From an uncultured Chloroflexia bacterium (GTDB taxonomy: Bacteria > Chloroflexota > Dehalococcoidia > DSTF01 > JALHUB01): DNA of 45,548 bases. Under the pieces are notes generated by a model. That model was not told where the DNA came from and did not search any database. It was given only the letters and a program-made list of their open reading frames with translations. Position numbers and translations under genes: made by a program. The stretch is from assembly GCA_963726245.1 (NCBI GenBank), contig CAVSBT010000003.1, positions 1 to 45,548 of the forward strand. The letters run 5' to 3'. Positions 29,017 through 45,436 of this stretch are shown here, piece after piece (within the stretch, counting starts at the first letter, position 1; every line of letters starts with the position of its first letter).

Positions 29017-31195
29017 GTGGCACAGCCGAGCGAAACACCGAAGATAACCCTGCGCGTCGCGGAAGCCCACATGAAAGACGTGGGCCGCGGCATCGCCCGC
29101 ATCGACCCCCAGGACCTCGAGGCCCTCGGCGCCGAGATCGGGGACATCGTCGCGCTCACCGGCAAGCGGCAGAGCGTGGCGAAAGCGATGCCGGCCTACC
29201 TCTCGGAACGGGGCCGGCGCATCGTCCAGATCGACGGCATCGTCAGGGAAAACGTCCAGGCCGGTCTGGACGAGACCGTGACCGTCTTCAAGGTCGCCTA
29301 TGAGACGGCCCGGTCGGTTTCGCTGGCGCCGTTGAACCCCATGCGGTCGCGGCCCGGCACGCAGCAGACCAGCTACATCGCCCGCCTGCTGGAGGGGCGC
29401 GGCCTCACGGAAGGCGACAGCGTGCGGGTCAACCTCTTCGGCACCCGCGCCCTTGACTTCAAGGTCGTGTCAACGACTCCCAAGGGCCCGGTGGTCGTCC
29501 AGGCATCGACAGCCATCCGCATCGAGGGCGAGGGTGGCGCGCCAAAGGAGGCCGCGGTCTCCTACGAGGATGTCGGAGGCCTGGCCAAAGAGCTGCCCCG
29601 CATCCGAGAGATGATCGAGTTGCCCCTCAAGTATCCGGAGGTCTTCGACCGCCTGGGCATCGATGCGCCGAAGGGCGTCCTCCTGCATGGGCCGCCGGGC
29701 TGCGGGAAGACGCTCATCGCCCGCGCCGTCGCCAATGAGACGGCCGCCAGCTTCTACCACATAGCCGGGCCCGAGATAATCCACAAGTTCTACGGTGAAA
29801 GCGAGGCGCACCTGCGAAACATCTTCCAGGAGGCTTCCGAGCACGCGCCCGCCATCATCTTCCTGGACGAGATCGATGCCATCGCACCGAAGCGGGAGGA
29901 AGTGCACGGCGAGGTGGAGAAGCGGGTGGTAGCCCAGCTCCTGGCCCTCATGGACGGCCTGAAGTCCCGCGGCGAGGTCATCGTCATCGGCGCCACCAAC
30001 ATCCCGAACTCGCTCGACCCGGCGCTGCGCCGCCCCGGCCGCTTCGACCGCGAGATCGCCATCAGCATCCCGGACAAGTACGGGCGGCTGGAGATCCTCC
30101 ACATCCACACCCGCGGCATGCCCCTGGCCGAGGACGTGGACCTGGAGCGTCTGTCGCAGATAACGCACGGCTTCGTCGGCGCCGACCTGGAGGCGCTCTG
30201 CCGTGAGGCGGCGATGATCGCCCTCCGCCGGATCATGCCCAACATCGACTTCGCAGACGCCAACATTCCCCTCGAGAGGCTCCTGGAGCTCGTGGTCACG
30301 CAGCAGGACTTCCTGGAGGCCCTCAGGGACGTGGAGCCTTCCGCCATCCGCGAGGTCTTCACCGAGATACCGGACGTCAAGTGGGACGACGTGGGCGGTC
30401 TGGAAGAAGCCAAGGAGACCCTGCGGGAGAGCGTCGAATGGCCGCTGAACTACGGCAAGCTCTTCGAGTACGCTAAGACCAGGCCGACAAAGGGCATACT
30501 CCTCCACGGGCCTCCCGGCACAGGCAAGACCCTCCTCGCCAAGGCCGTTGCCAACGAGAGCGGCGTAAACTTCATCACGGTGAAGGGCCCGGCACTCATC
30601 TCCAAGTGGATGGGGGAAAGTGAGAAGGGGATTCGGGAGGTCTTCAAGAAGGCCAAGCAGACCGCGCCCTGCATCGTCTTCTTCGATGAGATTGATTCGC
30701 TGGCGCCCGTGCGAGGCGCCGGCACGGGCGACTCTCACGTCATCGAGCGGGTGGTGAGCCAGCTCCTCACGGAGATGGACGGCATCGAGGAGCTCAAGGG
30801 GGTCGTCATCCTGGCCGCCACGAACCGGGTGGACATCGTCGACCCGGCGCTCCTGCGCCCCGGCCGCTTCGATCATGTCCATTGAGCTGCCCAGGCCGGA
30901 CGAGGCAGCCCGCCGCACAATCTTCCGGATCCACACGGCCGGCAAGCCGCTGGCCAAGGGCGTTGACGTGGACGCCCTGGCCGCTGAGACCGAAGGCCTG
31001 GTGGGCGCCGACATCGAGGCTATCTGCCGCCGGGCCTCCATGCTGGCGATCAGGGAGTTCCTTGAGTCCCAGCGCAAGGCGAAGTCGAAGCCAGCAGAGG
31101 CGGCCGGGGACTACAGCGGCTTCAAAATCACCAGCCGGCATCTCCGCCAGGCGACAGTCGAGGTGTCAAGGACGCCCAGGGATTGGGCTTTGTAG
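29017..31195 (+). CDS. CDC48/p97/VAT-family double-ring AAA+ ATPase (frameshift near 30878)
   Basis: N-domain [11 protein letters not shown]1 [23 protein letters not shown]2 [20 protein letters not shown]. The tail continues in ORF 30875-31195. Confidence 0.93.
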
Positions 31196-31214
31196 ACGGC
31201 GGCGGGCTTGTGGG

Positions 31215-31649
31215 CTAGGCCACCTTGGGGAACTGAGCCTCGAAGACCCTGTCGTGGACGCTGACCTTCGGGGCGGAGGTCGCCGGGACGAGGAAGTTCT
31301 CGTAGTAATACCAGCCGGGCGCCGCGTACTCCACCTCGAGCACGTCGCCGGTCAGCTCCCATCGCAGGTCAGAGGCCGAGATGCCCTCCGGGAAGGTCAC
31401 GCGCACCAGGCACTCGGTCGCGGTCTCCATGATCTCGCAGGTCGAGGCGCCCAATCGACGCGGCGGGATCAGGATGTCTCCGTCCCGAGCCCGCGAGAGG
31501 AACTTCGGGCGCTGCTCAACCCTCTGGGGTCGGTACGTGGCCCCGCCGACGCCGCCGGTCGGTCGCTTGGTCGTGATCGTGTGAGGCGGAATGCTTCGCA
31601 GTGACAGCTCTCTGCTTTCCTTTCTTCGCCGGTCGCTTCCGGCTTCCAC
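31215..31649 (-). CDS. Small protein with a degenerate alpha-crystallin (Hsp20/GvpH-like) C-terminal domain
   Basis: EIMETATECLVRVTFPEGISASDLRWELTGDVLEV..YENFLVP..SVHDRVFEAQF parallels the Hsp20 beta-sandwich of 35254-35814. Confidence 0.5.
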   Translation of the reverse strand: MEAGSDRRRKESRELSLRSIPPHTITTKRPTGGVGGATYRPQRVEQRPKFLSRARDGDILIPPRRLGASTCEIMETATECLVRVTFPEGISASDLRWELTGDVLEVEYAAPGWYYYENFLVPATSAPKVSVHDRVFEAQFPKVA

Positions 31650-31866
31650 GTAGCGATGGTATATGAGGAAAGCCGCTCTCTCAAGGACCCTGAGGCGGAC
31701 CTGGGCTCGCAGACGCCGGTTCTTCTATCTCTAGAAACGCTGGGCGTCCGCCAGAATAACATGGCGACGCCACGTTACCTCTAACGGCCTATCGCCCGCA
31801 GAAGTAGCCAGCTTCCAGGCCAGAAGACGCCTTCAGGTTCTTGCCGTGGACTCGTGGCTTAGGGCC

Positions 31867-32000
31867 GTAAGGACAGAGCTTCAGCTCTGTCCGTCTCTCT
31901 CGTTCCCTTGCGGACGGAGCTTCCGCCTCCGCCAGCGGCGAATCCGCCGCCTCTGGCGGAAGAGGCGGACCCGCCTTCGGCGGGAAAGCTCCGTCCTTAC
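31867..32000. repeat. REPIN-like element with nested palindromic inserts
   Basis: gtaaggacagagcttcagctctgtcc ... ggacggagctt[nested ccgcc/ggcgg hairpins]aagctccgtccttac. Confidence 0.7.
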
Positions 32001-32370
32001 GTCGCGGATGGCTGCCCAGGCAGCCGCCTCTCCCCATCAGACGATTCACAATCTGTCCACCGGCCGATGCGCAAGCTCCTGGCCAGCGTCGAACACAGAA
32101 TTGAGAGGTGGAGCGAGGCGGCGATGTCCCGTCTGAGCCGCGCCCCGGACCTATCGGGAGCAGGGGTCGGCTTAATAGGGGGCAGCGCCGATAGGACCGC
32201 CCGACGGCCCGCTCTAGACTTTCTACAGCAGGAGAGGGCGACCCTGCGTATGAGCGAGATTTCCCCGGTTTGTTACGGCGTCAACAGGTGCGGGCATGGA
32301 AATAATGGAGCCGTTTCCCCGCCGCGCCTCTGGCACTAGCCCTTCAAGGGCAACTCTTTGACGAGAGGAG

Positions 32371-32595
32371 GTGAGCAGCGTGGCTGTCGAGAAGTCAATC
32401 GCGTCATCTAGCCTGGTCGAGGTGGTCGACCGCATCCTGGACAAGGGTATCGTCATCGATGCCTGGGTGAGGGTCTCCCTGGTGGGTATCGAGCTCCTGG
32501 CCGTTGAGGCAAGGGCGGTAGCCGCCGGAGTGGACACTTTTCTGAAGTATGCGGAGGCCATCGGTCTCACGCCGCTGGCGGCGCCCCCGGCTTAG
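32371..32595 (+). CDS. gvpA: Major gas vesicle structural protein
   Basis: [55 protein letters not shown], with gaggag RBS. Confidence 0.97.
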
Positions 32596-32757: not shown

Positions 32758-33744
32758 ATGCCGACTGCAAGTGACATGGCGCGCTTGGGAAGCATACTCA
32801 GATCAGGGCACCGTCAGAGGCAAGCGGCGGGCGCCGCCGTGAGAGCGGCTGTCGGTGCGATGAAGGTCGAAGCGCGGCAGTTCGTGGGCGACCTGCGCGA
32901 CCAGGACGAGGCCCGCAGAGGAGCGGTGCAGGAGCACGCCGAGGAGACCAGACGCTTCATGGACGAGCTCCACGCCGAGACCCGGGCCCGGAAGCGCGAC
33001 ACACGGCGACACGCCGCTCAGACCGGCCGGTTCGTGGGCCGCCTCCACGACAAGAGCCAGACCCGGAAACGCGACATGCAGCGACACGCCGCCCGGACCG
33101 GACGCTTAGTCGAGCAGCTCCACGGGCAGAGCCAAGCCCGCGCGCGCGATGCGCAGCGCCACGCCGCCGAAACCGGGGATTTCATCCACGAACTGCACCT
33201 GGGGTCGCTCGGGCGCCACAGCGAAGAGCAGAAGCACGCTGCTGAGACCGGGCGGTTCATGGCTCAGCTCCATCGGCAGAGTCGGTCCCGGCGACGCAAC
33301 ATGCTCCGGCATGCCGCAGAGACGGCGGGCTTCGTTCGCCATCTTCACGTTGTCAGCCGGGAGCGCCAGCATGAGGTGGGTCACCTCTTGGGGCAGACGC
33401 GCCAGCTCATGGCCGGGCTGAACCTCATCACGAAGAAGGCGCAGGCCGAGTGGCGGCGTCAACTGTCCGCCATCGACTCTGGTCGGCGAAGGGATGGCGC
33501 AGGACCTGTGGTGTCACCCCGAAGCGGCCCGACCGTCGTGGAAGCCAAGAGCGAGCCGCGGAGCAAGCGAAACGTAACCAGCCGCATGCTGGCGTACGTC
33601 GGCGGGCACCCCGGCGCCAAGCTCACGGAGATGGAAAGGGCGCTCAGGATCAACAGGTTAGAGTCCGCCCGCACAGTCCACGCGTTGCTCAACCGGGGCA
33701 AGATCCGGCGAGACAAGGAGACGAGGCAGTACTTCCCCGCCTAG
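32758..33744 (+). CDS. GvpC-like helical repeat protein (25-aa His-rich repeats) with C-terminal winged-HTH-like domain
   Basis: Lies between gvpA and gvpN, with aggaggagg RBS. Tandem HAAET..F...LH repeats. Family assignment is positional and structural. Confidence 0.7.
   Translation: MPTASDMARLGSILRSGHRQRQAAGAAVRAAVGAMKVEARQFVGDLRDQDEARRGAVQEHAEETRRFMDELHAETRARKRDTRRHAAQTGRFVGRLHDKSQTRKRDMQRHAARTGRLVEQLHGQSQARARDAQRHAAETGDFIHELHLGSLGRHSEEQKHAAETGRFMAQLHRQSRSRRRNMLRHAAETAGFVRHLHVVSRERQHEVGHLLGQTRQLMAGLNLITKKAQAEWRRQLSAIDSGRRRDGAGPVVSPRSGPTVVEAKSEPRSKRNVTSRMLAYVGGHPGAKLTEMERALRINRLESARTVHALLNRGKIRRDKETRQYFPA
32860..33384 (+). repeat. Seven in-frame 75-nt tandem repeats
   Basis: Units start at 32860, 32935, 33010, 33085, 33160, 33235 and 33310. 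Units 2-7 begin cacgc/catgc (His-Ala). Confidence 0.85.
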
Positions 33745-33779: not shown

Positions 33780-34760
33780 GTGGCCACTCGGACGCGTGAC
33801 CTGCAAGTAGAGACTCTTGCGGGCGGGGGAAATGGAGACTTCGCGCCGCCGGTCGACGAGGCCGCGTTCGAAGCCCTGGCCCGTCCGGCTTTCGTCGAGA
33901 CCCCGTTCGTGCGGAGCATCGTCCAGCGCGCCCTGGCGTACACGGGCCAGGGTCTTTCCGTCCACTTCCGCGGCCCCACGGGCTGCGGCAAGACGACGCT
34001 GGCCATTCACCTGGCGGAGCAATTGGGCCGGCCGATGATCATCGTCAGCGGCGACGAGGAGTACCTCACCTCGGACCTGGTTGGCGGCGAGCACGGCTAC
34101 GAGCGGAGGCGGACCGTCGACAACTTCATCCACTCGGTCGTAAAGACCGAGGACCGCGTCGACTACCGCTGGGTCGATAGCCGGCTCACCATAGCCTGTC
34201 AGGAAGGCTACACTCTCGTCTACGATGAGTTCAACCGCTCCCGACCCGAGGCCAACAACATCTTCCTGCCCGTCTTGGAAGAGAGGATCCTGATCCTTCC
34301 CACCATCAGGAGTGGGAAGGGCCACCTGCGGGTCCACCCGAACTTCTCGGTCATCTTCACCAGCAACCCAAAGGAGTATGCAGGCGTGCACGCCAGCCAG
34401 GACGCTCTCCTGGACCGGATGATCACCCTGGATCTCAAGCACTTTGACCGCGACACGGAGGTTGCCATCACCCAGTCCCGGACAGGACTCCCTCAGGGCC
34501 GGGTGGAAGTCATCGTGGACCTGGTGAGGACGCTCCGGGAGGCGACGGAGGGTCAGTGTGACCCTACTGTGCGGGCCTGCATCATGATCGGCAAGGTCAT
34601 GGCGGCGCGAAGTCGAAACGGCGGCGGGCCCTCGTTCGAGCAGGTGTGCATAGACGTGCTGGCCAAGGAGATAAACCCCGGCGGAAGGCCGGGCGACGAC
34701 AGAAGGCAGGTCCTGCTGGAGCTGGTCCGGGCATCCCGCTGGGGCCAGGCTCGACGCTAG
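33780..34760 (+). CDS. gvpN: Gas vesicle AAA+ ATPase
   Basis: VHFRGPTGCGKTTLA, VDNFIHSVVK, WVDSRLT, YDEFNRSRPEANN, TSNPKEYAGVH..QDALLDR. Confidence 0.95.
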   Translation: MATRTRDLQVETLAGGGNGDFAPPVDEAAFEALARPAFVETPFVRSIVQRALAYTGQGLSVHFRGPTGCGKTTLAIHLAEQLGRPMIIVSGDEEYLTSDLVGGEHGYERRRTVDNFIHSVVKTEDRVDYRWVDSRLTIACQEGYTLVYDEFNRSRPEANNIFLPVLEERILILPTIRSGKGHLRVHPNFSVIFTSNPKEYAGVHASQDALLDRMITLDLKHFDRDTEVAITQSRTGLPQGRVEVIVDLVRTLREATEGQCDPTVRACIMIGKVMAARSRNGGGPSFEQVCIDVLAKEINPGGRPGDDRRQVLLELVRASRWGQARR

Positions 34761-34805: not shown

Positions 34806-35171
34806 ATGAAACAGGATGAACCTGATGGTGTCGCCAGGGGGCTCAGGGCGTTGCCAACCAAGACTGTCGAGCACGTCCGCTCGGCGCACGACGTGAGGCA
34901 CCAGACCACGATGCGTCACTCGACGGGCGAGGGCGACCCCTACAAGCAGCTCCAGCGCCTCGCGCGGGAGAAGGAGAGCCTGGAACGGCGCCTTCTTATC
35001 TGGCTGAGCCAGAAGGAGCGAACGGAAGCGCAGATCGCCGCCATCGCCCGCGAGCAGGCCCGTATCGTGGACGCGCTGGAGCCCCAGGTCCGCAGGGAGG
35101 CGGCAGGGTTCCGGCCGGGGCCCGGCTCCTTCCAGCCGGTTTCGTTGGAACGGAGAAGCAGGGCAGGCTAG
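34806..35171 (+). CDS. Coiled-coil protein downstream of gvpN (positionally GvpV-like)
   Basis: ggagg RBS and heptad segment YKQLQRLAREKESLERR..IAAIAREQ. Confidence 0.6.
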   Translation: MKQDEPDGVARGLRALPTKTVEHVRSAHDVRHQTTMRHSTGEGDPYKQLQRLAREKESLERRLLIWLSQKERTEAQIAAIAREQARIVDALEPQVRREAAGFRPGPGSFQPVSLERRSRAG

Positions 35172-35253: not shown

Positions 35254-35814
35254 ATGCCGACCCAGAAGCGTGGAGGAAAGAAGAGGGAAGAGAGGCCGGA
35301 GTTCGACCCCGGGCTCGGGCTCGGCGGCATGTTCAAGGGGCTCGGCAGCTTCATCGAGCTCCTCACCGAGATGGCCGAGAAAGGCGAGACCCTCGCAGAG
35401 CGGAGCGGGGAGATTCACGGTCTGCGCGAGGGAATGCGGGGCGTCTACGGCTTCAACGTTCGCATGGGCCTCGGCGGCACGCCGCAGGTGCAGCAGTTCG
35501 GGAACGTGCATGCCACCAGCGAGGGGCCAGTCGTGGACGAGGTGCGGGAGCCCATGGTGGACGTCTTCGACGAGGGCGACTCCATCCTGGTGGTAGCGGA
35601 GATGCCAGGCATCGGCATCAAGGACATCGTGATCGACGTGAAGGGCGACGTGCTCTCTATCTCCACCATGTCGACGGCCGCCAGGAAATACGCCAAGGAA
35701 GTGTTGCTGCCCGCGGCGGTCAGCGTCGCCACTCAGCGGAGCACCTTCAAGAACGGCGTCCTGGAGCTCCGCTTTGGCAAGGCCGGAGGGAAGAGGCCTC
35801 GCGCGAAGAGATAG
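35254..35814 (+). CDS. Hsp20/alpha-crystallin protein (GvpH-like, archaeal-type N-terminus)
   Basis: VYGFNVRMG..QQFGNV, REPMVDVFDE..VVAEMPG, YAKEVLLP, FKNGVLEL. Confidence 0.88.
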   Translation: MPTQKRGGKKREERPEFDPGLGLGGMFKGLGSFIELLTEMAEKGETLAERSGEIHGLREGMRGVYGFNVRMGLGGTPQVQQFGNVHATSEGPVVDEVREPMVDVFDEGDSILVVAEMPGIGIKDIVIDVKGDVLSISTMSTAARKYAKEVLLPAAVSVATQRSTFKNGVLELRFGKAGGKRPRAKR

Positions 35815-39174: not shown

Positions 39175-39550
39175 GGAACTTGTGCCTCAGCGGGAGAGCG
39201 TCGGCAGCGTGGTCGACGTCATCGACGCCATACTGGACAAAGGGCTCGTGATCAACTCCGACATCATGGTGTCGGTGGTGGGCGTCGAGCTCCTCGGCAT
39301 CAAGATTCGGGCTGCCCTCGCCTCCTTCGAGACCGCAGCCAGGTACGGGCTGGAGTTCCCCTCCGGGACGAACCTGGAGCTGCCTGCCTGGCAGGAAGCG
39401 CGGTTGCCGAAAGAAACCTGCCCTCAGTGCGAGAAGCGGGTCGACAGCAGGGAGCTGCTGGAGATGGGCTGCCCCTGGTGCGGGTGGCTCAGCGCCCGCG
39501 CCGAGGCGCCGGTCATCGAGAGAATGGCCGCAAGCCCCGCGAAAGGATAA
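39158..39550 (+). CDS. gvpJ: GvpJ-like (GvpA family) protein with C-terminal Zn ribbon
   Basis: DAILDKGLVINSDIMVSVVGVELLGIKIRAALASFETAARYGLEFP, then CPQC..CPWC. Confidence 0.82.
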   Translation: MPPLSRELVPQRESVGSVVDVIDAILDKGLVINSDIMVSVVGVELLGIKIRAALASFETAARYGLEFPSGTNLELPAWQEARLPKETCPQCEKRVDSRELLEMGCPWCGWLSARAEAPVIERMAASPAKG

Positions 39551-39558: not shown

Positions 39559-40620
39559 GTGTTGCCCCCGGGGACGGCATATCTGCCGGCCAGCTTCAAC
39601 CAGTCATCTCTGGTGGACCTGCTGGACCGTGCGCTCGACAAGGGGGTCGTGGTATCGGCGGACCTCGTCGTCTCACTGGCCGGCGTCCCTCTCGTCGGCG
39701 TCAACCTGAGGGCCGCCGTCGCCGGGATGGAGACGATGCTTCGCTACGGTCTCCTGCGCGACTGGGACGCGCGCATACGGGACTGGGAGAGCGGGCACGT
39801 CGAGCAGCGGGAGCCTGCGCTGCTGACTAACGAAACGATGGTCCTGCGCATGTACGGGGCGCTGTGGGCGGCCCACGGCATCTACAGGGCCTGGAAGCCT
39901 GGACACGTCTATCTTACCAACAAGCGGCTCATCTTCTTCCGCGCGCAGCCCGCGGAGACGTTACGGGAGATACCCCTTCACAGCGTAAGCGGCTACGCCG
40001 TCCGGACGGAGGCCCACTTCACCGGCCGCCGGCGAGACCTGGTCTACCTGGCCCTCCGCTCGGGCGGACACGTCTGCTTCTATGCGGAGAGGCACGATGA
40101 GCTGCTGTCCGCGATGGCAACGGAGATGAGCAGCATGGGCCTCCCGCTCGTCGAAGGGGCCGCTCCGGCCTTCGCCGCCCTCGACGAAGAGGCGGCGCTC
40201 GTGGCGGGGGAGGCGATTAAGGCCGAGAGCAAGATGTGGCGCAAGGTTCCTCAACTGGGAATCCTCGGTGACACGTGGAGGCCCGGCAGACTCTACCTCA
40301 CTGACAGCCGGCTCGTCTGGCGGTGCGATACCGACCGGCAGGTCCGGCTGGAAGTGCCTGTGGGGCGCCTGGGCGCCGCCGAGCGTGGAGACGATGGACC
40401 TCGGCGGTCTCATCGGTGAGAGGCCTGTGCTCTCGGTGCAGTACAGCAACTCGCACGGGCTGGAGACGGCCCGTCTCACGGGCGACGGCCTCTGGGAGTG
40501 GAAGCAGGCCATCGAGGCCCTTGCGGAGGGATCAGGAGCCTGCCCTGAGCAGTCGAAGGGGCCTGCCCTGAGCACGTCGAAGGGCCAGTGGTGGCTCTTT
40601 CAGCACCCTGCGAGCGGTAG
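39559..40620 (+). CDS. GvpA-family (GvpJ/M/S-like) protein fused to two PH/GRAM-like domains (frameshifts near 40377 and probably 40552)
   Basis: LVDLLDRALDKGVVVSADL..L.RAAVAGMETMLRYG, then GHVYLTNKRLIF and GRLYLTDSRLVW. The end coordinate is inferred after frame correction. Confidence 0.72.
40538..40584 (+). repeat. Tandem pair of family B units inside the CDS tail
   Basis: gcctgccctgagcagtcgaaggg (23 nt) followed by gcctgccctgagcacgtcgaaggg (24 nt). Confidence 0.75.
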
Positions 40621-40644
40621 ACCGGCCGGGAAAGGAGTCTCAGC

Positions 40645-40980
40645 TTGGTCGTCGACATCGACGAAGGGAATCTGAAGGCAGGACTGCTCGCCCTGGTGGT
40701 CAGCCTGGTCGAAGTGATCAAGGATGCTCTCAAGCTCCAGGCGTTCAAGCGCATGGAGGGCGGAAGCCTGACGGAGGAGGAGATCGACCGCCTGGGACGG
40801 GCACTCGCCGATCTCGATGTCGCCCTGGAGCAGATGAAAGCCGATCAGGGCATCGCCGAGGCCGTGCAGCAGGTGCGGGACGGCCTCGACGAGCTCGTCG
40901 ACGACGTGCTCGACAAGTTCCTCAACCCGCAGTCCTGGGTGGAAGAGGCCGAGCGGCCTGATCGCGCGGGGGTGCGCTGA
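40645..40980 (+). CDS. gvpK: Gas vesicle protein K
   Basis: GLLALVVSLVEVIKDALKLQAFKRMEGGSLTEEEIDRLGRAL, with aaggag RBS and TTG start. Confidence 0.9.
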   Translation: MVVDIDEGNLKAGLLALVVSLVEVIKDALKLQAFKRMEGGSLTEEEIDRLGRALADLDVALEQMKADQGIAEAVQQVRDGLDELVDDVLDKFLNPQSWVEEAERPDRAGVR

Positions 40981-40981: not shown

Positions 40982-42052
40982 GTGGCGCTGCGGTTCCAAC
41001 CTGCCCTGGCCTCCGGTGAACGCCAGGTCCTGCACGAGCAGGGAGCGTACACCTCCGGCCGCACGTGGAAGCTGGGAGAGTTCTGCTTGACCGACAGGCG
41101 GTTGCTCTTCGGCCATATGCACAGGCAGTTCCTGGAGGTAGACCTGGGCCGCGTGGAAGACATGTGCCTGCGGAAGAAGGCCTTCATCCTGAGCAGCAAG
41201 CCCTGCGTTGTGCTCACCTATCGGGACGCCGGGCGCGACAAGCCACGAGAGGCTTGGATAGTGAACGGTCACATCGACAGGTGGCGGAGCGCCATCGCGG
41301 GCCTGCTGGCCGAGCGGGGGATCGAGCTCAGACATGAGCCGTCGGAGGCCGGTGAGGAGGTCAGCTCGGACGGGGAGGGCTCTGGATGGCCGCGCGACGA
41401 CCCGAGGGCCGCCGGGGGGGCTGTGCGGAGGGGACGGCGCGACGCGGATCGGAGGGAACGCCTCCAGACGGCGATGGCGAAGATCCGCGGCCAGGACCGG
41501 GCCTGCGCGCTTCAGCCGAGTGACATCGCCGAAGTCGCCCGCCTCGTGGACGGCGGCAGTGCCAGGATGCTCTGGCACCTCTGGAAGCACCGCCACTACA
41601 GGCTGGACGAGCTAAAGGAGATGCTGGGGGAGACATCGCACATGGCCGTCCTCGCCCGCATCAGGGGGGTGATCAACCCGGCGGCCGAGCGGCTCCTCGG
41701 CAGGCCCATCCTGGTCTTCGAGCGGTCGCGCACGGACCGCGAGACCGGCGAACGCGTGCTCCATAGCTGGTGGCTCAACGAAGAGCCAGCGATTGAGGCG
41801 ACCGGCAACGGCCACTTCGTCGACGTGTTCGATGAAGGCGATCACTTTCTCGTCATCCTGGAGCTGACGGGCGCCCGCGAGGAGGACATCCAGGTGGAAG
41901 CCAGGGACGGCCGGCTTTCGGTAGCCGTCAACACGGCGGAGAGCAGGTGCTACGAGGAGACTCCCCTACCGCCGGGCGCCGAGGCCGGCGCTCTGAGCAC
42001 AACCTATCGGAACGGTATCCTCCAGGTCAGGCTGGGCAAGGAGGCTGCGTGA
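40982..42052 (+). CDS. Multidomain protein: PH/GRAM-like, wHTH-like and Hsp20 domains
   Basis: GEFCLTDRRLLF; MLWHLWKHRHYRLDELKEMLG; VDVFDEGDHFLVILEL..YRNGILQVRL. Confidence 0.75.
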   Translation: MALRFQPALASGERQVLHEQGAYTSGRTWKLGEFCLTDRRLLFGHMHRQFLEVDLGRVEDMCLRKKAFILSSKPCVVLTYRDAGRDKPREAWIVNGHIDRWRSAIAGLLAERGIELRHEPSEAGEEVSSDGEGSGWPRDDPRAAGGAVRRGRRDADRRERLQTAMAKIRGQDRACALQPSDIAEVARLVDGGSARMLWHLWKHRHYRLDELKEMLGETSHMAVLARIRGVINPAAERLLGRPILVFERSRTDRETGERVLHSWWLNEEPAIEATGNGHFVDVFDEGDHFLVILELTGAREEDIQVEARDGRLSVAVNTAESRCYEETPLPPGAEAGALSTTYRNGILQVRLGKEAA

Positions 42053-42894
42053 TGGAAGCTGAAGACTTGGGCGCAAGCGGCGCCACCGCCAGGTACGTTT
42101 ATGCGGTCGTGCCGCGCACGGCCGGAGAGGAGCTGGGCGTGGCCGGCATCGCCGGCGTCCGCGTCTACATGATCGTGCATCGGGCCGTAGCCGCCGTCGT
42201 CCACAACTGCCCGCCCGAGCCGTATCAAGGCGAGCCTGAGACCGTGGCGGGCTGGGTGAAGGCTCACAACGAAGTCATCGACAAGGCCTGGACCAGGGCC
42301 GGCTCCGTCCTGCCGATGCGCTTTAACGTCATCGTCAAGGCGGACGGCGAACGCTCGGCGGAGGAGAACGTCCGCCGCTGGCTGGAGCTGGAGTACCTGA
42401 ACCTCCAGGCTAAGCTGGACGAATTCCGGAACAAGGTCGAACTGGGCGTCCAGGTCCTGTGGGACCCGGCGGTCATTGCTCTGCGGATCGTCGAGAGCAG
42501 CGAAGAGATCAAGGCGTTGCGCGCTGAAATGGCGGCCAAGTCTCGAGGCACGGCCTACTTCCTCGAGCACAAGATCGGCAACGCCGTCAAGCAGGAGATG
42601 GAACGCAAGGCCCAGCGGGACTTCGCCACCTGCTACGAACGCCTGAAGGAGCGCTCCGAGGGGACTCACGTCAACAAGGTGAGGAGGCAAGACGACAGAG
42701 CGATGATCGCCAACCTATCGCTGCTTGTTCGAAGGGAGAGAGTACAGGAGGTCGGGGCTGTCCTTCAGGAAGTGGGCGGCGAACAGGGGGTCGAGGTCCG
42801 CTTCACCGGGCCCTGGCCTCCCTACACGTTCGCTGCCACTGTGGGAGCGATCGGAGGGGAGCCGGAGTTCGCGGCGGGGGTAAATGACAGTTGA
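42052..42894 (+). CDS. gvpL: GvpL/GvpF-family protein
   Basis: YVYAVV, AHNEVI, VLPMRF, ELGVQV, NLSLLV, FTGPWPPYTF. Confidence 0.85.
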   Translation: MEAEDLGASGATARYVYAVVPRTAGEELGVAGIAGVRVYMIVHRAVAAVVHNCPPEPYQGEPETVAGWVKAHNEVIDKAWTRAGSVLPMRFNVIVKADGERSAEENVRRWLELEYLNLQAKLDEFRNKVELGVQVLWDPAVIALRIVESSEEIKALRAEMAAKSRGTAYFLEHKIGNAVKQEMERKAQRDFATCYERLKERSEGTHVNKVRRQDDRAMIANLSLLVRRERVQEVGAVLQEVGGEQGVEVRFTGPWPPYTFAATVGAIGGEPEFAAGVNDS

Positions 42895-43216
42895 GAGGAC
42901 GAGCGCCTCGAAGAGCCTGGCGGAGTCCGTGGACCGGCTCCTGGCGGGCGGCATCATTATCGTTGACCGCGAGACACTCCTGTCGGTCCTCGGCCTGGAG
43001 TTGCTGAGTCTAGAGGCGCAGGTAGTGACGCTCTCTGCCCAGAAATACCTCGAGTACGCCGAGGCGGTGGGCTTGATACCGCTGGAGGGCCCGCGCCATG
43101 TGACCCGATACGTGATGCGCCGTGAGGTGAGGGCGCGGGTGGCCGCGCGAGGGGGGCTCATCAGGTGGCTCGTCGGGCTCGTCACCGGGAAGCGGCGGGG
43201 GCATCGAGAGGACTAG
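42884..43216 (+). CDS. Divergent GvpA paralog with basic/amphipathic C-terminal extension
   Basis: TVER..SLAESVDRLLAGGIII..SVLGLELLSLEA..YLEYAEAVGL. Confidence 0.8.
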   Translation: MTVERTSASKSLAESVDRLLAGGIIIVDRETLLSVLGLELLSLEAQVVTLSAQKYLEYAEAVGLIPLEGPRHVTRYVMRREVRARVAARGGLIRWLVGLVTGKRRGHRED

Positions 43217-43230: not shown

Positions 43231-43533
43231 GTGCTCACTTCGAAGCAGATGCGCGTCCTGGACCGGGCGTTCGCCGAGCTTGGCAGGACAGACCTGGCCG
43301 AGCTCTTGGCACGTCTGCGGGCCGCTCGGGCCGCCGAGTTCCGGGAACACATCCGCGAGCTTGTAGCCGGGATGGCGGAATCGCGCGAGCTCCGCCGGGC
43401 GCGCATCAACGAGATTCGTACCGAGGTGCGGGAAGCCATAGAGGAGTGGCAGCGGCAGTCGCGTGCCCTCCAGCGGCTGAAGTGGGAGAGGGATGGACAA
43501 GGTAATCGGCATCGACCTCGGGACGACCAATAG
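43231..43533 (+). CDS. Small helical/coiled-coil protein
   Basis: Fills the gap between the gvpA paralog and dnaK with a charged amphipathic sequence. Overlaps dnaK by 41 nt. Confidence 0.5.
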   Translation: MLTSKQMRVLDRAFAELGRTDLAELLARLRAARAAEFREHIRELVAGMAESRELRRARINEIRTEVREAIEEWQRQSRALQRLKWERDGQGNRHRPRDDQ

Positions 43534-45436
43534 CTGCGTGGCCGTCCTCGAAGGCGGCGAGCCCGTCGTCATTCCCAACGCCCTCGGCGAACGGATCACC
43601 CCTTCCGTGGTGAGCGTGAACCCCGCCGGCCGCCTGCTCGTCGGCACGCCGGCCAAGCGCTCCGCGGTCATCGACGCCGAAAACACCGTGCTCAGCATCA
43701 AGCGCTTCATGGGGCGGAGGTTTCATGACGGCGCCGGGAAACGGGACGAGGCCGTCAGGGTCGGGACCACGATCTCCAGCATCAAGCGCTTCATGGGCGT
43801 CAAGACCTTCGAGCCGTCGGTGGAGGAGGACAGCAAGTACGTCTCCTACAAGGTCGACGAAGGGGAACGGTACGACGTCCGTGTCTGGCTCGGCGATCGG
43901 CCCTACAGTCCGCCCGAGATCTCGGCCATGATCCTGCGGCAGCTCAAGTCTGATGCCGAGGCGTACCTCGGCGAAGAGGTGAGGCAGGCGGTGATCACCG
44001 TGCCGGCCTACTTCAACGACGGCCAGCGCCAGGCCACAAAGGACGCCGGCGCCATCGCCGGCCTGGACGTGTTGCGCATCGTGAACGAGCCCACCGCTGC
44101 CGCCCTCGCCTACGGCCTCCACCACAAGGGCGACCAGCTAATAGCCGTTTTCGACCTCGGCGGCGGCACCTTCGACATCTCCGTCCTCGAGCTTTGTGAG
44201 GGCACCTTCGAGGTCAAGGCGGTGAACGGCGATACCCACCTCGGCGGGGACGACATCGACAGGCGTCTGATGGAGTGGCTGTGCCGGCGCTTCGAGGAGA
44301 GGGAAGGCATAGACCTGTCCAAGGACCGGATGGCGCTCCAGCGCCTCAGGGACGCCTGCGAGAAGGCCAAGATGCGCCTCTCGGCCGGCGAAGCGACGGA
44401 GATCAACCTGCCGTTCATCTCCCCCAACGGAGCGTCGCCCAAGCACCTGGTCGCCTCTCTCACCCGGTCCGAGCTGGAAAGCCTGGCCGCCGACGTGGCA
44501 GAGCGGGCAATCGTGCGCTGCGGGCAGGCGCTGGACGACGCCGGCATTGCGGCCGCCGACTTGGACCAGGTCGTGCTCGTCGGAGGCCAGACACGGATGC
44601 CGCTCGTGCGGGACTGCGTGCGTCGCTTCTTCCACAGAGAGCCGCACACCGATCTCAACCCGGAGGAGGTGGTGGCCGTCGGGGCGGCGGTGCAGGCGGG
44701 AGTGTTGACAGGAGAGGTAAAGGACGTCCTGCTGCTGGACGTGACCCCGCTCACGCTGAGCATCGAGACCCAGGGCGGCATCGCTACACCCCTTATCCGG
44801 CGAAACAGCACCATCCCCACCAGCGCCGGCCAGGTCTTCACGACCGCTGAGGACGACCAGCCCAACGTGGAGATCAACGTTGTCCAGGGCGAACGCGCCA
44901 TGGCCGTCGAGAACCGGTCGCTGGGGCGCTTCTGCCTCGAAGACATACCGCCTGCCCCACGCGGCGTCCCCCAGATCGAGGTGACTTTCTCCATAGACGC
45001 CGATGGCATCGTCCAGGCGCGGGCCCGCGACGCGGCCACCGGCAAGGAGCAGGGCATCACAGTGGCAGCCGACGGCGGACTGCCGGCCGAAGAGATCGAG
45101 CGGCTCAAGGCAGAGGCCGAGCAGCTCTCGCGCCTCGACGCCGGGCGGCGCCAGGAAATCGGCGCCCGCAACGAGGCCGACACGGCGCTCCACCTGGCTG
45201 AACGGGCCATCGGCCTTCGAGGGCAAGAGCCCGCCCCTGAGGTCGCCGCTATAGTCCAATCCAGGGTTGCGCGACTAAGGGCGGCGCTCCGGGGCCAGAG
45301 CGTCATGCGCATCCAAATCGCCACCCAGGAGTTGAAGGCGGCCCTTCCCGCAGCGCTTCTCGATGAGGCAGGGCGGCCGGAAGACGCCGAAGCCGGAGTG
45401 GCTCTCGGCCTCTGTTCGGAACCTCTCGAGCGCTAA
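43493..45436 (+). CDS. dnaK: Hsp70/DnaK paralog with internal duplication
   Basis: GIDLGTTNS, TVPAYFND, DLGGGTFD, HLGGDD, DVLLLDVTPL linker and substrate-binding domain. Confidence 0.93.
   Translation: MDKVIGIDLGTTNSCVAVLEGGEPVVIPNALGERITPSVVSVNPAGRLLVGTPAKRSAVIDAENTVLSIKRFMGRRFHDGAGKRDEAVRVGTTISSIKRFMGVKTFEPSVEEDSKYVSYKVDEGERYDVRVWLGDRPYSPPEISAMILRQLKSDAEAYLGEEVRQAVITVPAYFNDGQRQATKDAGAIAGLDVLRIVNEPTAAALAYGLHHKGDQLIAVFDLGGGTFDISVLELCEGTFEVKAVNGDTHLGGDDIDRRLMEWLCRRFEEREGIDLSKDRMALQRLRDACEKAKMRLSAGEATEINLPFISPNGASPKHLVASLTRSELESLAADVAERAIVRCGQALDDAGIAAADLDQVVLVGGQTRMPLVRDCVRRFFHREPHTDLNPEEVVAVGAAVQAGVLTGEVKDVLLLDVTPLTLSIETQGGIATPLIRRNSTIPTSAGQVFTTAEDDQPNVEINVVQGERAMAVENRSLGRFCLEDIPPAPRGVPQIEVTFSIDADGIVQARARDAATGKEQGITVAADGGLPAEEIERLKAEAEQLSRLDAGRRQEIGARNEADTALHLAERAIGLRGQEPAPEVAAIVQSRVARLRAALRGQSVMRIQIATQELKAALPAALLDEAGRPEDAEAGVALGLCSEPLER

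What the first reader, a model, noticed from the sequence alone, without database searches (positions are those of the whole stretch)
29017..45436. Gas-vesicle locus with a built-in dedicated chaperone/unfoldase machine (CDC48, Hsp20 x3, split DnaJ, DnaK)
Seen in sequence: gvpA, C-like, N, F/L x3, G, J, K and extra GvpA paralogs are interleaved with Hsp20 domains, a J-domain, a DnaJ-type Zn finger and a terminal DnaK, with a CDC48 ATPase just upstream. Established: the studied clusters (Halobacterium, Anabaena, Priestia megaterium, Serratia) use GvpN and GvpF/L/G/K, and to my knowledge none has a characterised in-operon Hsp70 cycle or p97-type unfoldase. Inference: this is an organelle-specific proteostasis system. 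GvpF/L would capture hydrophobic GvpA, the fused J-domain would hand it to the local DnaK, sHsps would hold it, and CDC48 would extract or recycle subunits. Gas vesicles are also unexpected in a Dehalococcoidia-like host. Similar clusters may exist unstudied in other genomes.
Basis: partly seen in the sequence, partly recalled or inferred. Interest (0 to 1): 0.9.

Follow-up and report, generated by a model that had tools for sequence, protein, structure and literature searches.

The report
Gas-vesicle genes with built-in chaperones
An uncultured Chloroflexota bacterium keeps the genes for its gas-filled flotation organelles together with a private protein-handling kit (an extra Hsp70, a J-domain fused to an assembly factor, three small-heat-shock-type proteins, a CDC48 unfoldase); many relatives share this layout, and I found no study of it.

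Summary
Confirmed. Window 29.0-45.4 kb holds one gas-vesicle (gvp) cluster: gvpA, a repeat protein in the gvpC position, gvpN, three gvpF/L, gvpG, J, M-like, K and an A/S-like paralog. Interleaved are a GvpH/Hsp20 protein, a PH/winged-helix/Hsp20 protein, a GvpF fused to an HPD J-domain, a six-motif DnaJ-type zinc-finger protein and, last, a second DnaK. CDC48 and a third, divergent Hsp20-fold gene lie just upstream. The housekeeping GrpE-DnaK pair is on another contig.

All five gvp-bearing relatives keep the kit; in two, CDC48 sits inside the operon. Among 41 related genomes the extra DnaK occurs in 6/6 gvp+ and 0/35 gvp- genomes, CDC48 in 6/6 and 4/35. Across sampled Chloroflexota, CDC48 abuts gvpF/L in 22 of 45 other gvp+ genomes and GvpF-J fusions occur in 16 of 45. 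The gvp-linked CDC48s fall in one clade. Two Hsp70 lineages were probably recruited separately.

Two frameshifts here look like assembly errors. Comparative evidence says the chaperones are gvp-dedicated; the mechanism is inferred. My literature searches found only Hsp20 and ArsA precedents. This scan noted the same theme earlier in other genomes.

The parts
27118..27690 (+). p190, conserved protein of no known family that travels with the cluster
   Evidence: tblastn finds it in all five relatives (51-74% identity). It lies upstream of CDC48 in G004, G001 and G023, but next to the minus-strand Hsp20-fold gene after DnaK2 in G011 and G016. It has no Pfam family. The Atlas gives only unnamed clusters.
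29017..31195 (+). CDC48-type double AAA+ ATPase, broken in this assembly by a 1-nt insertion near 30881 (frame 1 to 30885, then frame 2 from 30875)
   Evidence: TIGR01243 876.5 bits. CDC48_N, CDC48_2 and 2x AAA. AAA_lid_3 in the shifted frame. An extra T relative to G004, G001 and G023. Two Walker A motifs and aromatic pore loops KFYGESE and KWMGESE.
31215..31649 (-). m144, divergent Hsp20/CS-fold protein (third sHsp-type gene)
   Evidence: The GC3 pattern shows a minus-strand gene. It is conserved in five relatives. hhalign to the GvpH/Hsp20 profile gives E 1.8e-5. In the AF2 model residues 70-141 have pLDDT >90. Foldseek top hits are sHsp ACDs and the Sgt1 CS domain.
31650..32370 (.). Non-coding divergent control region / gvpA leader
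   Evidence: No coding signal. Conserved blocks in four genomes, plus about 170 nt extra in G000. No Rfam family.
32371..32595 (+). gvpA, major shell protein
   Evidence: Gas_vesicle 3e-16. PRK09371 124.4 bits, above its cut-off of 100. 100% identical in G004 and G001.
32758..33744 (+). Repeat protein in the gvpC position (25-residue repeats; C-terminal winged-helix-like tail)
   Evidence: 75-nt tandem repeats. No GvpC family match. Weak MarR-type hit at residues 289-334. Conserved in relatives.
33780..34760 (+). gvpN AAA+ ATPase
   Evidence: TIGR02640 338.5 bits, above its cut-off of 266.8.
34806..35171 (+). cc121, helical protein of no known family
   Evidence: Correct GC3 frame. Conserved in the five relatives. 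No family match.
35254..35814 (+). GvpH-type small heat-shock protein
   Evidence: GvpH 23.4 bits and HSP20 22.1 bits, both just above cut-off. Orthologs in nine clusters aligned.
35822..36916 (+). GvpF/L fused to a C-terminal J-domain (HPD intact)
   Evidence: GvpL_GvpF 2.6e-56 plus DnaJ 2.6e-10. HPD invariant in six orthologs. 117 of the 120 best public clusters carry both domains.
36913..37737 (+). GvpF
   Evidence: GvpL_GvpF 2.9e-60.
37766..37826 (.). Dispersed palindromic (REP-like) hairpin inserted between gvpF and the zinc-finger gene
   Evidence: 25 motif matches in the genome against 0 for the control. Hairpin of -45.4 kcal/mol, z -5.4. Very high contig depth in four metagenome runs.
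37880..38275 (+). DnaJ-type zinc-finger protein (six CXXCXGXG motifs, no J-domain)
   Evidence: DnaJ_CXXCXGXG 3.8e-10. Motif count.
38292..38612 (+). gvpG
   Evidence: GvpG 3.7e-15.
38668..39174 (+). TPR-like helical protein, family unknown
   Evidence: Weak TPR_6 hit, 4.7e-4, below its cut-off. Conserved in relatives.
39158..39550 (+). gvpJ-like shell-family protein with a C-terminal Cys-rich tail
   Evidence: Gas_vesicle 1.9e-13. halo_gas_GvpJ 8e-27, below its cut-off.
39559..40675 (+). gvpM-like domain fused to two PH/GRAM-like domains, broken here by a 1-nt insertion at 40383
   Evidence: Gas_vesicle 5.6e-15 and Vps36/GRAM hits. An extra G relative to three relatives. The base is absent from contigs of four public runs (table 4).
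40645..40980 (+). gvpK
   Evidence: GvpK 1.7e-17.
40982..42052 (+). PH-like / winged-helix-like / Hsp20 three-domain protein
   Evidence: HSP20 20.9 bits. NCBIfam archaeal Hsp20 9e-15, below its cut-off. AF2 model. ACD fold match to 4rzk, E 1.3e-6. Seven orthologs aligned.
42052..42894 (+). gvpL
   Evidence: GvpL_GvpF 9.1e-64. gas_vesic_GvpL 167 bits, below its cut-off of 200.
42884..43216 (+). GvpA-family paralog (GvpS-like)
   Evidence: PRK09371 59.3 bits, below its cut-off. Gas_vesicle 18.6 bits, below its cut-off.
43249..43533 (+). cc122, 94-residue helical protein overlapping the dnaK2 start
   Evidence: Conserved in all five clusters that have the full-length DnaK2. No family match.
43493..45436 (+). 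DnaK2, gvp-linked Hsp70 paralog, last gene of the operon
   Evidence: HSP70 2e-225. The housekeeping copy lies elsewhere. It forms a separate clade, 100/100. Present in 6/6 gvp+ and 0/35 gvp- relatives.

Best explanation
This is a functional gas-vesicle gene cluster of a type widespread in Chloroflexota. It carries its own chaperone kit for the aggregation-prone shell-family proteins (GvpA, J, M, S).

Shown by comparison of genomes: the kit is inherited, lost and rearranged together with the gvp genes.

Inferred from what the families do:
- The GvpF-J fusion works like a client-delivering J-protein. GvpF supplies the client-binding part that DnaJ's C-terminal domains normally supply, and its HPD J-domain triggers ATP hydrolysis in an Hsp70.
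- In this lineage that Hsp70 is a dedicated duplicate, DnaK2. In most other lineages it is presumably the housekeeping DnaK.
- The stand-alone DnaJ-type zinc-finger protein and the three Hsp20-fold proteins act as ATP-independent holdases.
- The CDC48 double-ring AAA+ ATPase, with aromatic pore loops in both rings, threads and unfolds mis-assembled or collapsed shell protein. Subunits can then be re-used or nucleation sites cleared.
- No proteasome gene was found, so CDC48 would act as an unfoldase/segregase and not as a protease cap.
For: 1. Conserved linkage through rearrangement.
- All five gvp-bearing relatives keep CDC48, the three Hsp20-type genes, GvpF-J and DnaK2.
- The zinc-finger gene is seen in 4 of 5. 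G001's contigs break at that point.
- In G011 and G016, CDC48 lies between the GvpH/Hsp20 gene and gvpF-J, and m144 and p190 lie after dnaK2.

2. Phyletic pattern in 41 related genomes.
- gvpF/L in 6.
- DnaK2-type in 6/6 gvp+ and 0/35 gvp-.
- CDC48 in 6/6 gvp+ and 4/35 gvp-. Within family f1 the split is 5/5 and 0/13.

3. Phylum sample of 401 genomes.
- gvpF/L in 47.
- CDC48 at E<=1e-120 in 81, by my cross-tabulation 33/47 gvp+ and 48/354 gvp-.
- CDC48 lies within 5.5 kb of a gvpF/L match in 22 of the 45 other gvp+ genomes used, from 11 family codes. It is often between two gvpF/L genes.
- The GvpF-J model match runs through the J-domain in 16 of 45.
- A second type of Hsp70 lies 0.2-1.6 kb from gvpL in G117, G084 and G292.

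4. Trees.
- All 28 gvp-linked CDC48 rows fall in one 33-row clade (SH-aLRT 94).
- The label needs 4 changes on the tree against a shuffled mean of 20, reached in 0/500 shuffles.
- DnaK2 is a 100/100 clade nested among the class's housekeeping DnaKs. The short gvp-linked Hsp70s are a separate 99/96 clade.
- The gvp label needs two changes in all 200 bootstrap trees. AU test of a single clade: p = 0.043.

5. Working parts look intact.
- HPD is invariant.
- In DnaK2 the ATPase motifs, the VLLLDVTPL linker and the substrate-binding domain are conserved.
- The arch position reads Q or R in both gvp-linked Hsp70 types and L in all six housekeeping copies aligned. The name 'arch' for that residue is recalled, not from a call.
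- CDC48 has two Walker A motifs and aromatic pore loops.

6. Housekeeping GrpE-DnaK, DnaJ and Clp/ClpB-type genes exist elsewhere in the genome. The kit is therefore extra.

7. Operon form. Genes from gvpA to dnaK2 are on one strand with short gaps or overlaps. Nothing conserved follows dnaK2.

8. Precedent. GvpH prevents GvpM aggregation in Haloferax and 'might act as chaperone' (PMC6107691, passages read).
Against: - There is no experimental or expression evidence of any kind.
- In this genome CDC48 is a separate transcription unit.
- CDC48 and GvpM-PH each carry a one-base insertion here. G001's DnaK2 has an internal TGA.
- A related CDC48 (60% identity, inside the gvp-type clade) occurs in four gvp-less genomes of genus g9, with no gvp or chaperone neighbours.
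- 23 of the 45 other gvp+ Chloroflexota genomes have no CDC48 next to gvpF/L. 29 of 45 show no J-fusion and 42 of 45 no nearby Hsp70. The kit is therefore optional. Some of these misses may come from short contigs.
- From my own knowledge: the studied clusters (Halobacterium, Anabaena, Priestia, Serratia) make vesicles without such genes.
- The Pfam HSP20 and GvpH scores are only just above their cut-offs.
- No nucleotide-exchange factor is in the cluster.
- Related genomes are not independent, so the counts overstate the statistical support.
Confidence: 0.75

Rival explanations
1. The kit serves mainly disassembly and turnover, not assembly. CDC48 with DnaK2 and the sHsps would dismantle collapsed or surplus vesicles, and so lower buoyancy or recycle protein. 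This is a variant of the best explanation with the opposite direction of action.
For: CDC48 has aromatic pore loops in both rings, as expected of a processive unfoldase. It can be placed inside or outside the operon, so co-translation with shell proteins is not required. Clp/ClpB-type genes exist elsewhere, so a general disaggregase is not lacking. From my own knowledge: collapsed vesicles cannot be re-inflated.
Against: The J-domain is fused to GvpF/L, a family tied to early assembly and nucleation (stated in PMC2963123, passages read). The sHsp, zinc-finger and J genes are interleaved with gvpF, G, J and K, which suggests co-expression during biogenesis. No protease or proteasome gene is in the cluster, and no PF00227 match is in the genome.
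Confidence: 0.2
2. The chaperone genes are a general stress island that merely hitch-hikes beside the gvp genes, for example on a mobile island, without acting on gas-vesicle proteins.
For: Heat-shock genes often cluster. One paper read hsp20 next to gvp genes as a heat-shock link (PMC7325909, passage read). A REP-like repeat lies in the locus. A related CDC48 exists without gvp genes in genus g9.
Against: The J-domain is physically fused to GvpF in 22 of the 51 gvp+ genomes searched, 6 close kin (G000 among them) and 16 others, and in at least 117 public protein clusters. PH/GRAM-like domains are shared by the GvpM fusion and one Hsp20 protein. DnaK2 is absent from all 35 gvp- relatives. Linkage survives two gene orders and two separate Hsp70 recruitments. 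The housekeeping DnaK, GrpE and DnaJ genes are elsewhere.
Confidence: 0.05
3. The Hsp70/J/sHsp components are regulatory. As DnaK does with sigma-32, they would sense unassembled GvpA and feed back on gvp transcription. The winged-helix-like domains in the PH-wH-Hsp20 protein and in the repeat protein would read this out.
For: A winged-helix-like domain sits in the middle of the Hsp20 fusion (pLDDT about 80). There is a weak MarR-type hit at the C-terminus of the repeat protein. A long, partly conserved non-coding region lies upstream of gvpA.
Against: No DNA-binding family reaches significance. Foldseek returned only sHsp matches for that model. A regulatory role does not explain CDC48 or the GvpF-J fusion.
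Confidence: 0.1
4. The locus is decaying in this genome, and the frameshifts in CDC48 and GvpM-PH are real pseudogenisation.
For: There are two one-base insertions in 16 kb. G001's DnaK2 has an internal stop.
Against: The base at 40383 is missing from contigs of all four public runs laid. An X2 contig bridges the CDC48 site with one gap (table 8). The genes are intact in G004 and G023. GC3 periodicity continues across both breaks. Earlier notes on this same assembly report many one-base errors (unchecked notes).
Confidence: 0.1

Closest known systems
GvpH of Halobacterium/Haloferax gas-vesicle clusters (Pfam PF05455)
   Same: The 186-residue protein at 35254-35814 matches GvpH and HSP20. GvpH keeps GvpM from aggregating and 'might act as chaperone' (PMC6107691, passages read).
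   Different: Here there are three Hsp20-fold genes. One is fused to PH-like and winged-helix-like domains, and they come with ATP-driven machines (Hsp70, CDC48). My searches found no such machines described for haloarchaeal clusters.
gvp clusters with an ArsA/Get3 homologue and Hsp20 (Castillo and Saier 2010, PMC2963123; Polaribacter, Pelodictyon, Geobacter, Anabaena)
   Same: Non-canonical ATPase and sHsp genes sit inside gvp operons. The authors read them as energising or chaperoning biogenesis (passages read).
   Different: No ArsA/Get3 match was found among the ORFs scanned here. That paper does not mention Hsp70, DnaK or CDC48 (0 occurrences each).
HscA-HscB, the dedicated Hsp70/J-protein pair of Fe-S cluster assembly (from my own knowledge, no call)
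   Same: A paralogous Hsp70 works with a J-protein whose non-J part binds one specific client and delivers it. This is the closest functional analogy for GvpF-J with DnaK2.
   Different: DnaK2 is a recent duplicate of canonical DnaK, not an HscA. HscA models score lower than DnaK models (582 against 846 bits). The presumed client is a structural shell protein.
DnaK-DnaJ-GrpE with ClpB and IbpA/B, the bacterial disaggregation network (from my own knowledge)
   Same: The same logic of sHsp holdases, a J-protein, an Hsp70 and a hexameric AAA+ threading motor.
   Different: The AAA+ motor is a CDC48/VAT-type enzyme, not ClpB. The J and zinc-finger modules are on separate proteins. No GrpE is in the cluster. 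The set is tied to one organelle.
Archaeal Cdc48/VAT and actinobacterial Cpa (PMC6017811, title and start of the abstract seen in the search listing only)
   Same: Domain order N-D1-D2. The score is above the TIGR01243 cut-off. The control search found this family only in archaeal reference genomes.
   Different: No proteasome family was found in this 83%-complete genome. The C-termini of the gvp-linked copies are not conserved. The gene context is a gas-vesicle cluster.

Membership tests
Gas-vesicle (gvp) gene cluster | GvpA-family shell protein gene | tested here: met
   Gas_vesicle 3e-16. PRK09371 124.4 bits against a cut-off of 100.
Gas-vesicle (gvp) gene cluster | Core accessory genes gvpN, gvpF/L, gvpG, gvpJ, gvpK | tested here: met
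   TIGR02640 338.5 bits. Three GvpL_GvpF matches. GvpG, GvpK and GvpJ-like matches.
Gas-vesicle (gvp) gene cluster | GvpC outer scaffold protein (Pfam Gas_vesicle_C) | tested here: not met
   The repeat protein at 32758-33744 has no GvpC match at E up to 5. Its repeats are 25 residues long. Only its position and repeat nature resemble GvpC.
Gas-vesicle (gvp) gene cluster | Gas vesicles are actually formed | not testable with these tools
   The organism is an uncultured MAG. No RNA-holding run was listed.
Hsp70/DnaK | Full-length match to HSP70/DnaK models | tested here: met
   PF00012 750 bits. NF001413 845.9 bits against a cut-off of 648. The match is split by an insertion of about 28 residues after residue 76.
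Hsp70/DnaK | ATPase motifs, interdomain linker and substrate-binding domain conserved | tested here: met
   Alignment with six housekeeping DnaKs. The motif names are recalled, not from a call.
Hsp70/DnaK | Paralog distinct from the housekeeping copy | tested here: met
   A second copy with GrpE is on C37. DnaK2 is a 100/100 clade. Present in 6/6 gvp+ and 0/35 gvp- relatives.
Hsp70/DnaK | Own nucleotide-exchange factor (GrpE) in the cluster | tested here: not met
   There is one GrpE match in the genome, next to the housekeeping DnaK.
J-domain protein | J-domain with an HPD motif | tested here: met
   PF00226 40.7 bits against a cut-off of 27.8. HPD is invariant in six orthologs.
J-domain protein | Stimulates Hsp70 ATPase | not testable with these tools
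   This needs a biochemical assay.
Type I DnaJ (full DnaJ) | J-domain, G/F region, zinc-finger domain and C-terminal domains in one chain | tested here: not met
   The J-domain is on GvpF (35822-36916). The zinc-finger domain is on a separate 131-residue protein with six CXXCXGXG motifs. Neither matches full DnaJ models above cut-off.
CDC48/VAT/p97 AAA+ ATPase | N domain (CDC48_N + CDC48_2) followed by two AAA modules; above the TIGR01243 cut-off | tested here: met
   Two Walker A motifs.
CDC48/VAT/p97 AAA+ ATPase | Uninterrupted reading frame | tested here: inconclusive
   The frame is broken by one inserted T in this assembly. It is intact in G004, G001, G023, G011 and G016. One public contig bridges the site with a single gap.
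CDC48/VAT/p97 AAA+ ATPase | 20S proteasome partner (as for archaeal Cdc48 and Cpa) | tested here: not met
   No PF00227 match in G000, which is 83% complete. The C-termini are not conserved.
Small heat-shock protein (alpha-crystallin domain) | ACD by sequence | tested here: met
   HSP20 22.1 and 20.9 bits against a cut-off of 20.8 for two proteins, both marginal. m144 is detected only by profile-profile comparison, E 1.8e-5.
Small heat-shock protein (alpha-crystallin domain) | ACD beta-sandwich fold | tested here: met
   m144: Foldseek hits to sHsp ACDs and the Sgt1 CS domain, target TM 0.6-0.73. PH-wH-Hsp20: 4rzk, target TM 0.81. GvpH-type protein: not folded.
Small heat-shock protein (alpha-crystallin domain) | Holdase activity and oligomer formation | not testable with these tools
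   This needs biochemistry.

The most novel reading that the evidence does not exclude
CDC48, an Hsp70 recruited by the GvpF-J fusion, and the Hsp20-fold proteins form an organelle-specific, ClpB-independent disaggregase/segregase. It would extract the amyloid-like shell protein GvpA from mis-assembled or collapsed vesicles and feed it back into growing ones. That would be the first bacterial case of a CDC48-type machine dedicated to building and recycling a protein-shelled organelle. The separate recruitment of two Hsp70 lineages, both with a polar residue at the substrate-arch position, would mark adaptation to that one client.
Probability: 0.25. Interest if true: 0.85.

Novelty: new variant of a known kind. 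Interest (0 to 1): 0.72.

Why it matters
How the extremely hydrophobic, aggregation-prone GvpA is kept soluble, delivered and inserted into a growing gas vesicle is an open question.

It is also a practical bottleneck for gas vesicles used as acoustic reporter genes. Heterologous expression causes proteotoxic stress (PMC12848028, abstract and passages read).

A naturally co-evolved kit gives named, testable candidates for that missing chaperoning step: a J-domain on GvpF, a zinc-finger holdase, sHsps, CDC48 and sometimes a private Hsp70. The same genes could improve expression in foreign hosts.

It also gives bacterial CDC48 homologues, whose roles are poorly known, a defined candidate client.

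Tried and rejected
- **Complex prediction, DnaK2 (alignment A5) with cc122 (A4).** The verdict was 'no answer', score 0.00. This is no evidence either way. The idea that cc122 is a DnaK2 cofactor or exchange factor stays a guess based only on co-occurrence and the overlapping start.
- **Expression.** No RNA holder was listed for the stretch.
- **The search for related loci with the GvpF-J alignment.** The patterns were too narrow and returned only the five known relatives. The wider survey was done with the genome search instead.
- **Genome-wide J-domain search.** The listing was cut (98 matches not shown), so it could not be used to count fusions. It was replaced by the A1 model search.
- **Hsp70 of G148.** It lies 13.9 kb from the cluster and groups with non-gvp paralogs, so it was rejected as gvp-linked.
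- **G117.** No CDC48 within 10 kb downstream of its Hsp70, and none in that genome at the threshold used.
- **CDC48 as a proteasome cap.** No PF00227 match.
- **Promoter and terminator scan.** Terminator-like sites were at chance level (8 against 7.4). Three promoter-like sites against 1.0 expected, not informative.
- **Rfam.** No match in 27000-45548.
- **Atlas look-ups.** p190 and cc122 gave only unnamed clusters. One cc122 hit was a cluster in which 10% of members carry Gas_vesicle_C, a lead only.
- **N-terminal PH-like domain of the Hsp20 fusion.** The model confidence was too low (pLDDT 50-65) to name the fold.
- **First careful DnaK tree.** No answer came back. It was repeated as quick and careful runs.
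- **ORFs dismissed.** 30882-31604, 31846-32136, 31908-32339 and 35196-35825 were dismissed as wrong-frame or non-coding.

Full report
**What is there.**
- The window is a whole 45.5-kb contig (C3) of a 2.68-Mb, 46-contig, 83%-complete MAG.
- Its closest relatives in the genome collection are titled 'uncultured Dehalococcoidia bacterium', and one 'Chloroflexia bacterium'.
- G+C is about 66%, so six-frame ORF lists are full of spurious frames. I used third-position G+C to pick the real ones.
- From 32371 to 45436 a single plus-strand array with short gaps or overlaps encodes, in order: GvpA; a 25-residue-repeat protein in the gvpC position; GvpN; a helical 121-residue protein; a GvpH/Hsp20 protein; GvpF fused to a J-domain; GvpF; a DnaJ-type zinc-finger protein; GvpG; a TPR-like protein; GvpJ; a GvpM-like domain fused to PH/GRAM-like domains; GvpK; a PH-like/winged-helix-like/Hsp20 protein; GvpL; a GvpA/S-like paralog; a 94-residue helical protein (cc122); and a full-length DnaK.
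- Upstream lie a conserved protein of no family (p190), a CDC48-type ATPase and, on the minus strand, a 144-residue protein (m144).
- m144's C-terminal half is an Hsp20/CS-type beta-sandwich.
- All Gas_vesicle matches in the genome are in this locus.
The corrections are listed under the observation check.

**The two broken genes.**
- CDC48 changes frame near 30881 and GvpM-PH near 40383.
- Each break is one extra base relative to G004, G001 and G023.
- Contigs of four public metagenome runs that carry 92-100% identical DNA all lack the base at 40383. One contig spans the CDC48 site with a single gap.
- Earlier notes on other pieces of this same assembly report many one-base errors (unchecked notes).
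- I read both breaks as assembly errors (about 85%). Raw reads of the source sample would settle it.

**Is the DnaK the housekeeping copy? No.**
- A higher-scoring DnaK (888 bits against 656 bits for the main stretch of the gvp-linked copy on PF00012) sits on contig C37, directly after the genome's only GrpE match.
- DnaJ-type genes are on C17 and C39.
- Clp/ClpB-type genes are on C1 and C45.

**Recurrent linkage among close kin.**
- GvpL_GvpF occurs in 6 of 41 related genomes, G000 included.
- tblastn with 22 window proteins shows that all five others (four genus codes, two family codes) keep CDC48, m144, the GvpH/Hsp20 gene, GvpF-J, the PH-wH-Hsp20 gene, cc122 and DnaK2.
- The zinc-finger gene is seen in four. 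G001's contigs break at that point.
- Gene order differs. In G011 and G016, CDC48 lies inside the operon, between the GvpH/Hsp20 gene and gvpF-J, and m144 with p190 follow dnaK2.
- Linkage that survives rearrangement is the strongest sign that these genes belong together.
- With a profile of the five full-length DnaK2 proteins, the six gvp+ genomes give a match above 1150 bits. The 35 gvp- genomes give only the housekeeping type, at most 802 bits.
- CDC48 (E<=1e-120) is in 6/6 gvp+ and 4/35 gvp- genomes. Within family f1 it is 5/5 against 0/13.
- The four exceptions are all in genus g9. Their CDC48 has no gvp or chaperone neighbours in the two I fetched.

**Across the phylum.**
- In an even sample of 401 Chloroflexota genomes, GvpL_GvpF is in 47 and CDC48 in 81.
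- Cross-tabulating by hand gives CDC48 in 33 of 47 gvp+ and 48 of 354 gvp- genomes. The tool's tallies include G078, flagged unpublished; without it the first figure is 33 of 46.
- Leaving out G078, CDC48 lies 5-5481 nt from a GvpL_GvpF match on the same contig in 22 of the 45 other gvp+ genomes. It is within 2 kb in 20 of these, from 11 family codes, and often sits between two gvpF/L genes.
- The 23 without adjacency include genomes whose CDC48 and gvp genes are on different short contigs.
- The GvpF-J profile matches through the J-domain part (beyond position 320 of 368) in 16 of those 45 genomes.
- In the public protein collection, 117 of the 120 best clusters carry both GvpL_GvpF and DnaJ domains. 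Where named, they are annotated only as 'GvpL/GvpF family', from Chloroflexi/Chloroflexota, Desulfobacteraceae and Acidobacteria MAGs.
- An Hsp70 gene lies 223, 329 and 1577 nt from gvpL in G117, G084 and G292. These clusters also have a GvpF-J fusion, zinc-finger genes and Hsp20 genes, and G084 and G292 have CDC48 as well.
- Related genomes are not independent, so these are descriptive counts, not tests.

**Trees.**
- CDC48 tree: 60 rows, IQ-TREE quick, LG+G4. It holds 28 gvp-linked rows (G065's partial copy left out) and 32 of the non-linked matches, which I picked to span scores and families.
- All 28 linked rows fall in one 33-row clade (SH-aLRT 94, not starred).
- The five non-linked rows inside that clade are second copies or displaced copies from gvp+ genomes (G397b, G346b, G051, G076) and G018 of genus g9.
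- The other 27 non-linked rows are in other clades. Among them is a longer type of about 880-920 residues.
- DnaK tree: careful run, 23 rows, one very long row left out. Three rows are the largest piece of a broken gene.
- The six kin DnaK2 form a 100/100 clade nested among the class's housekeeping DnaKs (96/98), so they are a fairly recent duplicate.
- The Hsp70s of G292, G084 and G117 form a separate 99/96 clade outside that group.
- The two of these whose whole frame is open, G084 and G117, are about 505 residues long and end soon after the beta-sandwich, so they lack most of the helical lid. G292's copy is in two pieces.
- The gvp label needs two changes in all 200 bootstrap trees.
- The AU test disfavours a single clade, p = 0.043. 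This is marginal, and the group was defined after a first tree had been seen.
- Two separate recruitments of Hsp70 into gvp clusters is the likelier reading.

**Do the parts look functional?**
- HPD is invariant in the six GvpF-J orthologs.
- DnaK2 keeps the phosphate-binding and adenosine motifs, the VLLLDVTPL linker and the substrate-binding domain.
- DnaK2 has a roughly 28-residue insertion that duplicates the SIKRFMG motif in four of the five orthologs aligned. G016 has a shorter insertion without the duplicated motif.
- Its C-terminal tail is shortened.
- In the ETxGG motif of the substrate-binding domain all six housekeeping copies have L. DnaK2 has Q or R, and the short gvp-linked Hsp70s have Q. 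From memory this is the arch residue over the substrate cleft (M404 in E. coli DnaK).
- A shared polar change there in two independent lineages would fit a special client. This is a lead, not a result.
- CDC48 has N, D1 and D2 domains, two Walker A motifs and aromatic pore loops in both rings.
- No 20S/HslV-family gene was found in the genome.

**How it most likely works.**
- Shown: the kit is co-inherited with the gvp genes and is additional to the housekeeping chaperones.
- Inferred from the families:
  - GvpF-J is a client-specific J-protein that presents GvpA-family proteins to an Hsp70. That Hsp70 is the private DnaK2 here and the housekeeping DnaK where no private copy exists.
  - The zinc-finger protein and the three Hsp20-fold proteins hold unassembled shell protein.
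  - CDC48 unfolds or extracts mis-assembled or collapsed shell protein.
- The PH/GRAM-like domains shared by the GvpM fusion and one Hsp20 protein may bring holdase and shell protein to the same place. This is speculation.
- The closest functional analogies are HscA-HscB (a dedicated Hsp70 with a client-delivering J-protein) and the sHsp-DnaK-ClpB network, with CDC48 in ClpB's place.

**What is known.** I ran seven full-text searches.
- 'gas vesicle' with DnaK and gvpN; with Hsp70, gene cluster and gvpA; with CDC48; and with DnaJ and GvpF returned no paper describing an Hsp70, a J-domain or CDC48 in a gvp cluster.
  - DnaK in PMC12848028 is only in a reference.
  - Cdc48d in PMC6107691 is a Ni-NTA contaminant (passages read).
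- 'gas vesicle' with Hsp20 and gvp gave the precedents:
  - Hsp20 and ArsA homologues in gvp clusters (PMC2963123, passages read).
  - hsp20 beside gvp genes in an actinobacterium (PMC7325909, passage read).
- 'gas vesicle' with Chloroflexi and gvpA led to gas vesicles imaged in Chloroflexales (PMC7332563, passages read).
- A seventh search, for the Cdc48-like protein of actinobacteria, gave PMC6017811, of which I saw only the listing.
- GvpH as an anti-aggregation factor comes from PMC6107691.
- Subscription-journal papers and supplements were not searched, so 'not in print' holds only for this library.
- Within this scan, at least seven earlier notes on other genomes describe the same theme and likewise found no paper (unchecked AI notes). 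Those genomes are Bacteroidota, Anaerolineales, a CPR bacterium and others.
- This window is thus one more member of an undescribed but widespread cluster type.
- It is notable for the full-length private DnaK2 with cc122, the three Hsp20-fold genes and the absence of an ArsA/Get3 gene.

**Verdict.**
- Novelty: a new variant of a known kind. It is a gas-vesicle cluster whose accessory set extends from the known GvpH/Hsp20 and ArsA to an Hsp70 cycle and a CDC48 unfoldase.
- Interest: 0.72.

Noticed in passing
window 37766-37826: A REP-like palindromic element sits between gvpF and the zinc-finger gene. It has two inverted copies of a 15-nt core. There are 25 core matches in the genome against 0 for the control. 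The hairpin folds at -45.4 kcal/mol (z -5.4). Contig depth over it is very high in four metagenome runs, so the element is common well beyond this genome.
   Followed up: partly
window 27118-27690: p190 is a 190-residue protein of no known family. It is conserved in all five relatives and moves with the minus-strand Hsp20-fold gene when the cluster is rearranged. It is probably a further member of the kit or its regulator.
   Followed up: partly
window 27687-28514 (-): An RlpA-like DPBB (lytic transglycosylase-type) gene is inserted between p190 and CDC48 in this genome only. In G004 that gap is about 300 nt.
   Followed up: partly
window 31650-32370: A long non-coding region (570-720 nt) lies between the divergent Hsp20-fold gene and gvpA. 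Several sequence blocks are conserved in four genomes. There is no Rfam match. It may be a regulatory leader.
   Followed up: partly
window 43721-43810 (DnaK2 residues about 77-106): A roughly 28-residue insertion duplicates the SIKRFMG motif of the nucleotide-binding domain. It is shared by G000, G004, G023 and G011. G016 has only a shorter insertion at that place, without the duplicated motif, and the housekeeping copies have none.
   Followed up: partly
window about 44760-44775 (DnaK2 ETQGG): In the ETxGG motif of the substrate-binding domain both gvp-linked Hsp70 lineages have Q or R. All six housekeeping DnaKs aligned have L. This may be convergent tuning of client specificity.
   Followed up: partly
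window 22114-26161: An NHEJ set is present: LigD (ligase plus primase-polymerase), Ku and a second ATP-dependent ligase, followed by a DUF72 gene. This block is absent between the syntenic flank and the gvp cluster in G011.
   Followed up: no
L016:2457-3259, L021:3806-4595, L022:3616-3951: Relatives carry two or three copies of the DnaJ-type zinc-finger gene. In G023 an extra copy lies between the GvpS-like gene and cc122.
   Followed up: no
L023:3845-5761 (G001): The DnaK2 of the same-genus relative has an internal TGA, leaving an open frame of 402 codons from the start. This is either an assembly error or decay.
   Followed up: no
G018:C3:349657-351759 and three other genomes of genus g9: A CDC48 of the gvp-type clade (60% identity) occurs in genomes without gvp genes, with no chaperone neighbours detected. 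It may be a relic or have another client.
   Followed up: partly
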